Virus record (IMG/VR): IMGVR_UViG_3300031867_000002
Span: 128,001-192,000 of that record
DNA length: 64,000 nucleotides
Source: a virus
Taxonomy: Duplodnaviria > Caudoviricetes
Direction: 5' to 3' (one strand)
Below, piece by piece: positions 19,262 through 19,436 of this stretch. The position numbers and the translations under genes are program-made. The notes under the pieces were generated by a model. The model searched no databases and was not told where the DNA came from. It saw nothing but the letters and a program-made list of their open reading frames with translations. The first letter of the stretch is position 1. Every line of letters begins with the position of its first letter.

Positions 19262-19420
19262 ATTTTTCATTTGAAATTCTCGTTTGCTTGACTGAATTAA
19301 TATTTTCAGTCAACGAAGCCTCCAAATCCGTCACCCATACTAACACCTCCTTTCGGATAGTATGGATGAGAATGAAGGCTATTAAAACCTGAAAGTATTA
19401 ATAGATTTACTCTCATCACT
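19262..19420 (-). ncRNA. candidate structured small RNA containing a 10-codon ORF (19306-19338, MGDGFGGFVD)
   Basis: Early-type promoter near 19423-19433, two long hairpins, SD partly buried in UCC-GAAA-GGA. Confidence 0.45.
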
Positions 19421-19436
19421 ATTATGATATACAATT

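What the first reader, a model, noticed from the sequence alone, without database searches (positions are those of the whole stretch)
19262..19433. Structured early transcript hiding a strong SD and a 10-aa ORF
Seen on the minus strand: early promoter, then a long stem (GCCUUCA...UCAUCCAUACUA / UAGUAUGGGUGA...UGGAGGC) capped by UCC-GAAA-GGA. The stem sequesters AAAGGAGGUG and the AUG of MGDGFGGFVD*. A second hairpin (UUGACUGAA/UUCAGUCAA) covers the stop, followed by the shared terminator at 19237-19264. No larger gene uses this promoter. Inference: a regulatory sRNA, a translationally locked micropeptide (type I toxin-like or signalling), or a decoy for a GGA-binding protein.
Basis: partly seen in the sequence, partly recalled or inferred. 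Interest (0 to 1): 0.7.

Follow-up and report, generated by a model that had tools for sequence, protein, structure and literature searches.

The report
Conserved ten-residue early phage micropeptide gene
A giant gut or rumen phage carries a complete miniature early gene, about 186 bases of heavily folded RNA, that encodes a 10-residue peptide which selection has kept in related phages and in two Ruminococcus chromosomes; what the peptide does is still unknown.

Summary
On the minus strand, 19431-19232, there is an AR9-type early (virion RNA polymerase) promoter. It is followed by a 5' hairpin, a long stem that buries the AUG, the ORF MGDGFGGFVD, a hairpin over the stop codon and a bidirectional terminator.

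The unit is a real gene. Thirty-two distinct homologous units sit at the same place, just after the RNAP beta'-like gene (56-92% identical), in uncultured jumbo phages. All keep a 10-16 (rarely 22) codon ORF. The family motif is G-[DE]-G-x-x-G-x-[VIL], or D-D-F-E-T-C-G-G in the distant clade, and the variation is mainly at third codon positions.

A Ruminococcus chromosome carries a copy with unrelated flanks. Its 12-residue peptide is identical to one phage's and differs by 8 synonymous and 0 non-synonymous changes. A second species has a syntenic variant.

The AUG-burying stem recurs in about half the lineages and the stop-codon hairpin in most, each with different sequences.

The peptide has no hydrophobic segment, no signal sequence and no neighbouring modifying enzyme. 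The toxin, GGA-decoy and pure-sRNA readings are therefore not supported. No expression data could be obtained, and the function is unknown.

This scan already met the same gene family in related phage genomes. Those reports claimed copies in CRISPR arrays, which I could not reproduce.

The parts
19424..19431 (-). Early-promoter octamer TATATCAT (AR9-type virion-RNAP promoter core)
   Evidence: The motif class TATA[TC][ACT]AT-N4-GT[GA] occurs 37 times in the genome against 8.4 expected, nearly always in front of a hairpin, an SD and a gene. It matches the AR9 early consensus ...TATATTAT-N6-G+1. It is conserved in all relatives.
19417..19417 (-). Predicted transcription start (G, six bases after the octamer)
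   Evidence: Inferred from the spacing rule of AR9, phiKZ and phiR1-37 early promoters (PMC5312081). It has not been measured.
19390..19415 (-). 5'-terminal hairpin (RNA nt 3-28)
   Evidence: Seen in the MFE fold. A hairpin starting at +1 to +3 is present in nearly all homologues with unrelated sequences, and after most early promoters of this genome.
19317..19380 (-). Long stem-loop of 26 pairs over the translation start, capped by UCC-GAAA-GGA; the AUG lies in a 12-bp helix
   Evidence: unpaired probability of the AUG is 0.00 and of the SD 0.53. Complementarity between the upstream arm and the lineage's own spacer-AUG segment is specific: self -17.2 kcal/mol against a cross-lineage mean of -8.0.
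19344..19353 (-). Shine-Dalgarno AAAGGAGGTG, six bases before the AUG
   Evidence: Read directly from the sequence. It is invariant or nearly so in the homologues.
19306..19338 (-). Micro-ORF ATG...TGA encoding MGDGFGGFVD (10 aa plus stop)
   Evidence: In the core GDGF codons, positions 1 and 2 of the G, D/E and G codons are invariant, while third positions carry 1.2-1.4 bits of entropy. Phage L107 encodes the same peptide with one synonymous change, while its UTRs are about 70% identical. There is a single copy in the genome.
19280..19316 (-). Hairpin over the last codons and the stop codon (core UUGACUGAA/UUCAGUCAA, 19313-19288)
   Evidence: An equivalent hairpin occurs in most of the 32 distinct homologues, with unrelated sequences. 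In 78% of units at least 9 of the last 15 positions lie in a 5' arm, against 32% of random windows. Median MFE is -12.9 against -7.1 kcal/mol.
19232..19268 (-). Bidirectional intrinsic terminator shared with the convergent 153-aa gene (18767-19228, + strand)
   Evidence: A 16-pair stem flanked by an A-run and a T-run. A terminator lies at the same place in the relatives.
19437..21287 (-). Context and synteny anchor: phage multisubunit RNAP beta'-like subunit (N-terminal part, with DYDGD)
   Evidence: phrog_2986, E = 7.7e-85. D549-Y-D-G-D553 is invariant in the alignment. The nearest cultured relatives are the rpoC1/beta' genes of Listeria LPJP1, Staphylococcus S6/PALS_2 and Bacillus BpSp/AR9-like phages, at 30-33% identity.

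Best explanation
This is a genuine, self-contained early gene of an uncultured AR9-like jumbo phage. The host is probably Ruminococcus.

An AR9-type early promoter, read by the virion RNA polymerase, would start an RNA of about 186 nt at 19417 that ends at the shared terminator. The only conserved reading frame on this RNA encodes the 10-residue peptide MGDGFGGFVD. The peptide is the selected product. Its family motif is G-[DE]-G-x-x-G-x-[VIL], or more broadly D-G-hydrophobic-x(1-3)-G-G.

The RNA is built from four hairpins:
- a 5' stem at +3;
- a stem that buries the AUG and leaves the SD half exposed;
- a stem over the last codons and the stop codon;
- the terminator.

My reading is that these hairpins make a long-lived message whose translation is throttled or delayed. 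The phage would then get a small, controlled supply of a soluble cytoplasmic peptide from early infection onwards.

The peptide most likely acts as a linear-motif ligand, an inhibitor or modulator, of a conserved host or phage protein. The conserved N-terminal half would make the contact and the fast-changing C-terminal tail would tune specificity.

**Shown:** the sequence features, the promoter class, ORF conservation under purifying selection, recurrence of the structures, and the bacterial copies.

**Inferred:** the transcription start, that the ORF is translated, the throttling, and the mode of action of the peptide.
For: **Promoter.** The motif is enriched 37 against 8.4 and precedes other early-type genes. 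It agrees with the experimentally defined AR9 early consensus.

**Coding.**
- All 32 distinct units downstream of the orthologous RNAP gene keep a 10-22 codon ORF behind a strong SD.
- Without any peptide filter, the first SD-driven ORF is the motif ORF in 21 of 30 distinct sequences.
- Third-position entropy is 1.2-1.4 bits, against 0 at positions 1 and 2 of the G, D/E and G codons.
- WIN and L107 encode the same peptide with a 97% identical ORF, while the UTRs are about 70% identical.
- The Ruminococcus G001 copy against phage L104 has a 12/12 identical peptide with 8 synonymous and 0 non-synonymous differences, and unrelated flanks.
- A syntenic second bacterial copy encodes MGDGFCGGIA.
- In one clade the translation start was rebuilt: an upstream ORF ends in ATGGGTGA, overlapping the start. 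The peptide ORF was nonetheless kept.

**Structure.**
- z = -8.0 for the whole unit.
- The AUG is paired (unpaired probability 0.06 or less) in 14 of 25 homologues, against 5 of 30 other early genes of this genome.
- Self against cross-lineage complementarity gives P = 5e-4.
- The stop hairpin is enriched, P = 3e-7 and 7e-11.
Against: No transcript, ribosome-footprint or peptide data exist.

Nothing tested here bears on a target or on binding. The peptide is too short for the fold and complex tools. The effector mechanism therefore rests on exclusion of alternatives.

The AUG-burying stem is absent from about half of the lineages, which use anti-SD pairing or translational coupling instead. 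The exact form of the lock is therefore not conserved.

The homologues are related to one another, so the statistical tests overstate independence.

The peptide filter used fixes positions 1 and 2 by construction.
Confidence: 0.6

Rival explanations
1. Dual-function or mainly regulatory RNA. The four-hairpin RNA itself acts, for example by base-pairing with or titrating a factor, and the ORF is secondary.
For: The unit is strongly structured (z = -8.0). The 5', start-codon and stop-codon hairpins recur with different sequences across lineages, so structure is under selection as well.
Against: The hairpin sequences are not conserved, so there is no conserved seed region. The bacterial copies share only the SD and ORF with the phages and lack the phage flanks. 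No Rfam family matches. The period-3 conservation is that of a coding sequence.
Confidence: 0.13
2. Communication or kin-sensing peptide. It would be made inside infected cells, released at lysis, taken up by neighbouring cells and sensed by phage or host. This resembles arbitrium in logic but uses no secretion.
For: A conserved N-terminal half is paired with a rapidly diversifying C-terminal tail among close relatives. For example, WIN and L024 differ at more than half of the peptide positions while the RNAP gene is 87% identical. Such discrete variants look like pherotypes. Bacterial mobile-element copies could be eavesdropping or jamming.
Against: There is no signal sequence or pro-peptide. 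No TPR_12 protein is found in the phage. The single HTH_3 protein in the genome lies about 4 kb away and is not linked to the unit. No receptor candidate is conserved next to the gene.
Confidence: 0.12
3. Precursor of a ribosomally made, modified peptide, as with the 7-residue MccA of microcin C or the 5-residue biarylitide precursor.
For: The ORF is very short, has a conserved half and a variable half, and contains Cys, Tyr or Asp near the C-terminus in many variants.
Against: There is no modifying enzyme beside the gene in any phage or bacterial locus. The radical-SAM matches in the genome are a 183-aa frame over the family cut-off, which I did not examine, and a distant RlmN/Cfr-like RNA methyltransferase. 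Both are about 40-60 kb away. No C-terminal residue is conserved.
Confidence: 0.05
4. The act of translation matters and the peptide does not. Either it is a minigene that traps tRNA as peptidyl-tRNA, as the lambda bar minigenes do, or ribosomes loaded on the RNA stabilise it (STAB-SD-like).
For: A very strong SD sits on a tiny ORF. Relatives carry further 3-4 codon mini-ORFs with their own SD, such as MKRI and MSKL.
Against: The amino-acid sequence is conserved through synonymous change. The ORF is longer than typical drop-off minigenes. The start codon is buried, which is the opposite of what a ribosome trap needs. The bar and STAB-SD comparisons come from my own knowledge and were not tested here.
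Confidence: 0.05
5. Type I toxin-antitoxin-like module, or a decoy for a GGA-binding (CsrA-like) protein. These are the first reader's other options.
For: The start region is sequestered. There are three GGA triplets, one of them beside a GAAA loop. The terminator is shared with a convergent transcript.
Against: The peptide is Gly/Asp-rich with no hydrophobic helix. Promoter-like sites on the opposite strand are no more frequent than in shuffles, 6 against 10 expected. The GGA triplets are Gly codons that change freely to GGT or GGC in relatives.
Confidence: 0.04

Closest known systems
AR9/PBS1-type early transcription units of jumbo phages that encode two multisubunit RNA polymerases (Lavysh et al. 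2017, PMC5312081)
   Same: The promoter core TATAT(T/C)AT-N6-G matches. The phage encodes split beta/beta'-like RNAP subunits. Short early units are scattered between late genes, often with their own terminator.
   Different: No early unit consisting only of a roughly 10-codon gene came up in the passages of that paper I read with a term search. The AR9-like phage Goe21 has an unrelated 62-codon membrane-type ORF at the same position. The start site here is predicted, not mapped.
Very short stand-alone peptide genes: mccA of microcin C (7 codons) and bytA of the biarylitides (5 codons)
   Same: A ribosomally translated ORF of 5-12 codons with its own ribosome-binding site, missed by gene callers (searches show that no caller annotated it).
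   Different: Those are precursors that sit next to their modifying enzymes. No such enzyme lies next to this gene. This comparison is from my own knowledge.
Arbitrium (AimP) and other RRNPP-type signalling peptides of Firmicutes and their phages
   Same: A short phage-encoded peptide that diversifies among close relatives, in a Firmicutes host.
   Different: AimP is cut from a secreted precursor of about 40 residues and is encoded beside its receptor AimR. Here there is no signal sequence, no neighbouring receptor and no TPR_12 protein in the genome. The description of arbitrium is from my own knowledge.
Type I toxin mRNAs (hok, fst, tisB) and the MS2 maturation gene, where folding of the 5' region hides the start site
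   Same: The start codon is locked in a stable stem of a small, highly structured mRNA. In the window's sub-clade the 5' end (GAUGAGA) can also pair with the 5' arm of that stem, which would give a transient open form (my reading of the sequences).
   Different: The peptide is not hydrophobic, and no antisense RNA was found. The alternative pairing is seen only in the window's sub-clade, and its role is inference.
Lambda bar minigenes
   Same: Phage-borne mini-ORFs behind strong ribosome-binding sites. The 3-4 codon ORFs MKRI and MSKL in relatives resemble them most.
   Different: The bar effect does not depend on the peptide sequence. Here the peptide sequence is under purifying selection.

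Membership tests
AR9/phiKZ-type early (virion-RNAP) transcription unit | Extended AT-rich promoter with core TATATTAT and a start site (G) six bases downstream | tested here: met
   TATATCAT-AATAGT-G lies at 19431-19417. The motif class is 4.4-fold enriched in the genome. The consensus is taken from PMC5312081.
AR9/phiKZ-type early (virion-RNAP) transcription unit | The phage encodes its own multisubunit RNAP | tested here: met
   The neighbouring gene matches phrog_2986 at E = 7.7e-85 and has an invariant DYDGD. An RNA_pol_Rpb1_2 match was also found elsewhere in the genome.
AR9/phiKZ-type early (virion-RNAP) transcription unit | The transcript appears early and independently of protein synthesis | not testable with these tools
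Protein-coding gene (micropeptide) | The reading frame is kept, with an excess of synonymous over non-synonymous change | tested here: met
   The clearest case is 8 synonymous against 0 non-synonymous differences between phage L104 and the Ruminococcus G001 copy.
Protein-coding gene (micropeptide) | Translation or the peptide has been detected | not testable with these tools
   No Ribo-seq or proteomics data are available.
Type I toxin-antitoxin | A small hydrophobic, membrane-active peptide | tested here: not met
   MGDGFGGFVD and all relatives are Gly/Asp-rich and lack a hydrophobic stretch.
Type I toxin-antitoxin | A cis- or trans-encoded antisense RNA antitoxin | tested here: inconclusive
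   There is no above-chance promoter on the opposite strand. Phage-type promoters on the + strand of this stretch were not searched specifically.
Arbitrium / RRNPP signalling peptide | A secreted pro-peptide with a signal sequence | tested here: not met
   The ORFs are 10-22 codons and have no N-terminal hydrophobic region.
Arbitrium / RRNPP signalling peptide | A cognate TPR-type receptor encoded next to the peptide gene | tested here: not met
   The neighbours are the RNAP subunit and small proteins without a Pfam family. There is no TPR_12 match in the genome. A receptor of another fold is not excluded.
RiPP precursor (MccA-like, biarylitide-like) | An adjacent modifying enzyme and a conserved modified residue | tested here: not met
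   There is no enzyme next to the gene in phages or bacteria. The C-terminal residue varies.
Csr/Rsm-type protein sponge RNA | Several conserved GGA motifs presented in loops | tested here: not met
   The GGA triplets in the ORF are Gly codons that vary among GGA, GGT and GGC. No Rfam match was found.
Any Rfam family | A score at or above the family's gathering threshold | tested here: not met
   The best overlapping matches score 27 bits against thresholds of 55-100.

The most novel reading that the evidence does not exclude
The peptide is a currency of phage-host conflict. The phage makes it early to act on a host or phage target. Ruminococcus mobile elements have captured the bare ORF and express the same peptide from their own promoter. 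One copy sits in an island bounded by a large serine recombinase and an AAA-ATPase/PD-(D/E)XK protein. The captured copy would pre-empt, jam or sense the phage, a peptide-mimicry defence. The alternative is that the phage stole a host regulator.
Probability: 0.15. Interest if true: 0.85.

Novelty: new variant of a known kind. Interest (0 to 1): 0.62.

Why it matters
Genes this short are invisible to annotation. No gene caller reported this one on any of the contigs examined. Yet this gene is kept by selection across a whole clade of giant gut and rumen phages and has crossed into bacterial chromosomes.

If the peptide is made, it would be among the shortest stand-alone, unmodified phage gene products under demonstrable selection. 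It would also be a handle on early host takeover in a phage group that cannot yet be cultured.

The phage-bacterium sharing of a 12-residue ORF gives a host link to Ruminococcus. It also gives a simple experimental entry point: express or delete the bacterial copy and challenge with phage.

Tried and rejected
- **DNA search of cultured phage records.** No match.
- **Rfam.** Only sub-threshold noise.
- **tRNA and tmRNA.** None in the window.
- **Consensus folding.** RNAalifold on a MAFFT alignment of 16 start regions gave no consensus structure, because the stems are not in register. I used per-sequence folds and a self-against-cross complementarity test instead.
- **Longer in-frame ORF** (36-42 aa). 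Rejected, because it is broken in L009 and L024.
- **Paralogues in the genome.** None found.
- **Host copies.** The world-wide genome scan gave 19 pattern matches, of which only one, Ruminococcus MAG G001, is a true homologue.
  - The 29-nt second hit in G001 is a chance match at the start of a membrane-protein gene.
  - A genus-wide pattern search found G001 only.
  - A BLAST search added G104.
  - The neighbouring Cys-rich gene occurs only in these two genomes.
  - A family-level pattern search gave matches at control frequency apart from G001.
- **CRISPR-array copies claimed by earlier reports.** The L020-type unit has no BLAST hit in 161 Ruminococcus genomes. The short hits of my unit are not flanked by repeats. 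The claim is not reproduced here. It is also not disproved, because other genera and non-representative genomes were not searched.
- **The 80-aa protein downstream of the G104 copy.** An apparent similarity to other jumbo phages disappeared with default BLAST composition-based statistics.
- **Similarity between the bacterial islands and this phage.** None at DNA or protein level.
- **Kinase idea.** The GxGxxGxV motif resembles a kinase glycine loop, but the genome has no Pkinase match.
- **Literature.** No paper in the held library prints the motif in a phage context.

Full report
**Where the window lies.** The window is bases 128001-192000 of a 224.6-kb virus record with direct terminal repeats. 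The genome has 31.7% G+C.

The gene just upstream of the finding, 19437-21287 on the minus strand, matches the phage family phrog_2986, "RNA polymerase beta subunit", at E = 7.7e-85. It carries an invariant DYDGD, so it is the N-terminal part of a beta'-like subunit. Its nearest cultured relatives are the corresponding genes of Listeria phage LPJP1, Staphylococcus jumbo phages S6 and PALS_2, and Bacillus phages BpSp and AR9-like Goe21. Identity is only 30-33%. The phage therefore belongs to an uncultured clade related to the AR9 group.

Read on the minus strand, the stretch contains the following features.

| Feature | Window coordinates (minus strand) |
|---|---|
| Promoter octamer TATATCAT | 19431-19424 |
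| Predicted start, a G six bases on | 19417 |
| 5' hairpin | 19415-19390 |
| 26-pair stem capped by UCC-GAAA-GGA | 19380-19317 |
| SD AAAGGAGGTG | 19353-19344 |
| ORF for MGDGFGGFVD, with stop | 19338-19306 |
| Hairpin over the stop codon | 19316-19280 |
| Bidirectional terminator | 19268-19232 |

The 204-nt stretch folds at -75.4 kcal/mol. Shuffles average -40.8, giving z = -8.0, and none of 200 shuffles folds as well.

The SD is only half hidden, with mean unpaired probability 0.53, while the AUG is fully paired at 0.00.

**The promoter is a real class.** The pattern TATA[TC][ACT]AT-N4-GT[GA] occurs 37 times in the genome against 8.4 expected from Markov shuffles. Almost every copy is followed by a hairpin, an SD and a gene.

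The pattern coincides with the experimentally defined early promoter of AR9, AAATATATATTAT-N6-G(+1). That promoter is read by the virion RNA polymerase without new protein synthesis (PMC5312081). The start at 19417 is therefore a prediction by analogy and has not been measured. No longer gene follows. The RNA would be about 186 nt long.

**The micro-ORF is a gene.** I used the RNAP gene as an anchor and collected relatives from viral contigs, metagenomes and assemblies.

Every unit whose RNAP gene is 56-92% identical carries the same layout at the same place: the promoter motif, a 5' hairpin, a strong SD and a tiny ORF. There are 32 distinct sequences. The peptides include:
- MGDGFGGFVD, MGDGFGGGIGSY, MFGDGFGGSLCD, MGDGFIGGILD, MGEGIGGGIGF and MGDGFVGSVDN;
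- MFGDGYGGILFD, MGEDGYVGGEY and MPDGITCGGEFDY;
- MDDFETCGGSY and MDDMETYGSCC in the most distant clade.

In the core codons G-D/E-G-F, positions 1 and 2 of the first three codons never vary, while third positions carry 1.2-1.4 bits of entropy. That table was built with a peptide filter, so three independent checks matter more.

1. The first SD-driven ORF, chosen without looking at the peptide, is the motif ORF in 21 of 30 distinct sequences. The exceptions are a clade with an added upstream ORF, one GTG start, and misfires of the SD pattern.
2. The window and phage L107 encode the identical peptide. Their ORFs are 97% identical while their UTRs are about 70% identical.
3. A bacterial copy, described below, differs from a phage copy by eight synonymous and no non-synonymous changes.

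In one clade the start region was rebuilt. An upstream ORF such as MINEVGETHG ends in ATGGGTGA, overlapping the start of the peptide ORF, and still the peptide ORF is retained.

The gene is single-copy in this genome. No gene caller had annotated it on any contig.

**RNA structure is also under selection.**
- A hairpin starting at +1 to +3 is present in nearly all homologues with unrelated sequences. The same is true of most early units in this genome, so this part is generic.
- The start codon is paired (unpaired probability 0.06 or less) in 14 of 25 homologues, against 5 of 30 other early genes of this genome.
- In about half of the lineages, the segment upstream of the SD is specifically complementary to that lineage's own spacer-AUG-codon segment. 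Self energies are -11 to -17.6 kcal/mol, against cross-lineage means of -5 to -8. Overall P = 5e-4.
- The paired sequences differ between lineages: CAUACUA/UAGUAUG here, and CGAACAUAC/GUAUGUUCG, AAGCAUAUUU/AAAUAUGUUU and CAUGCU/AGCAUG elsewhere.
- Other lineages instead place an anti-SD (CCUCCUU) upstream, or use the coupled upstream ORF. Restricted initiation recurs, but the device varies.
- A hairpin whose 5' arm holds the last codons and the stop codon occurs in most of the 32 units, again with unrelated sequences. In 78% of units at least 9 of those 15 positions lie in a 5' arm, against 32% of random windows from the same loci. Median energy is -12.9 against -7.1 kcal/mol (P = 3e-7 and 7e-11).

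The units are related to one another, so these P values overstate independence.

In the window's sub-clade, the 5' end (GAUGAGA) is also complementary to the 5' arm of the long stem. In L048 the arm changes to match that lineage's 5' end (my reading of the sequences). This would allow a transient open form on the nascent RNA. It is inference only.

**Bacterial copies.** A scan of one genome per prokaryotic species with an SD-plus-motif pattern gave 19 matches, of which one is a true homologue. A Ruminococcus MAG (G001) carries SD-ATG...TAA encoding MFGDGFGGCLGD, with its own terminator.

This peptide is identical to that of phage L104. The two ORFs differ at 8 of 39 bases, all synonymous, and the flanks are unrelated. 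The contig carries ordinary bacterial genes: VanY, a solute-binding protein, an AraC regulator and a two-component system.

A BLAST search of the window's unit against 161 Ruminococcus genomes found a second, syntenic copy in G104. It encodes MGDGFCGGIA and is followed by an 80-aa gene. In G104 the locus lies in an island with a large serine recombinase, a DUF4869 protein, a small AAA protein, an AAA-ATPase_like/PD-(D/E)XK protein, a SpoIIID-like regulator and a 69-aa Cys-rich protein.

Both bacterial copies keep the octamer TATATTAT upstream but lack the downstream GTG. No other copy was found in the genus, nor in 400 genomes of the family. The gene is universal in the phage clade and rare in bacteria, which favours transfer from phage to bacterium. 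The direction is not proven.

The phage's LRR gene region also resembles LRR genes in 87 of 161 Ruminococcus genomes at 63-85% DNA identity. This fits that host.

**What it is not.**
- The peptide has no hydrophobic segment, so it is not a type I toxin of the usual kind.
- It has no signal sequence. No TPR_12 protein is encoded by the phage.
- No modifying enzyme lies beside the gene in any locus.
- The radical-SAM matches in the genome are a 183-aa frame that I did not examine and a distant RlmN/Cfr-like protein, both 40-60 kb away.
- The GGA triplets are Gly codons that vary freely.
- No Rfam family matches.
- The AR9-like phage Goe21 has an unrelated 62-codon ORF at the same position. The gene is therefore specific to this uncultured clade.

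**Most likely mechanism.** The virion polymerase makes a compact, nuclease-resistant mRNA early in infection. Its start codon is locked in a stem, so translation is limited or delayed. The product is a soluble peptide of 9-10 residues. The initiator Met is probably removed before Gly; that step is from general knowledge.

The conserved half, G-[DE]-G-x-x-G-x-[VIL], would bind a conserved host or phage protein. The variable tail would tune specificity.

The first part, that this is a real early micropeptide gene, I hold at about 0.85. Translational throttling I hold at about 0.5. The effector mode of action I hold at about 0.3, with signalling, a dual-function RNA and a modified-peptide precursor as the live alternatives.

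**Relation to earlier notes of this scan.** Other first readers had listed the promoter class and the +1 hairpins. I re-derived both.

Two earlier follow-ups on related phages (the MGEGIGGGIGF and MDDFETCGGSY units) reported the same gene family and host capture. I independently confirmed chromosomal copies. I could not reproduce copies inside CRISPR arrays.

No paper in the held library mentions the motif in a phage context.

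Noticed in passing
L009 about 5065-5085, L010 and L024 equivalent (downstream of their micro-ORF): Close relatives carry a second SD plus a 3-4 codon mini-ORF (MSKL or MKRI) between the micro-ORF and the terminator. The window has lost this roughly 60-nt segment.
   Followed up: partly
L013, L014, L015, L054, L057 (downstream of the RNAP gene): In one clade the strong SD drives an upstream 10-14 codon ORF (MINEVGETHG, MKSKVGDTHG). Its stop overlaps the start of the peptide ORF in ATGGGTGA, and its last codons encode the second ORF's SD-like AGGTG. 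This looks like translational coupling.
   Followed up: partly
L100:3423-3773: In one relative, a 116-aa HTH_19/HTH_3 protein gene is inserted directly after the micro-ORF on the same strand.
   Followed up: no
G000:C1:84627-85577 (outside the window; locus L161:628-1578): The phage encodes a 316-aa radical-SAM protein distantly similar to the rRNA/tRNA methyltransferases RlmN and Cfr (E = 1e-15, far below the family cut-off).
   Followed up: partly
window 22950-25050: The BspA-type LRR gene region matches LRR genes in 87 of 161 Ruminococcus genomes at 63-85% DNA identity. This supports Ruminococcus as the host or gene-exchange partner.
   Followed up: partly
G000:C1:64758, 94147 and 208192 (outside the window): Three early promoters are followed by nearly the same leader (GTGAATAGTAGAGGTCAGACAATGCTA...) in front of different downstream sequences.
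   Followed up: no
L168 (G104:C54:4000-17531) and L132 (G001:C82): The bacterial micro-gene copy in G104 lies in an island with a large serine recombinase, an AAA-ATPase_like/PD-(D/E)XK protein, a SpoIIID-like regulator and a 69-aa protein with eight Cys residues. In G001 the Cys-rich gene is interrupted by a TAA and the 80-aa downstream gene is missing.
   Followed up: partly
L110:2722-2910 (Bacillus phage Goe21, after rpoC1): An unannotated ORF of about 62 codons, membrane-type and with a strong SD, lies in the gap after the RNAP gene of this AR9-like phage.
   Followed up: no
window 19306-19434 (minus strand): The micro-ORF is in frame with a 42-codon frame that starts inside the promoter. 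An AUG at +2 of the predicted RNA would give a leaderless 36-aa product. The extension is not conserved in relatives.
   Followed up: yes
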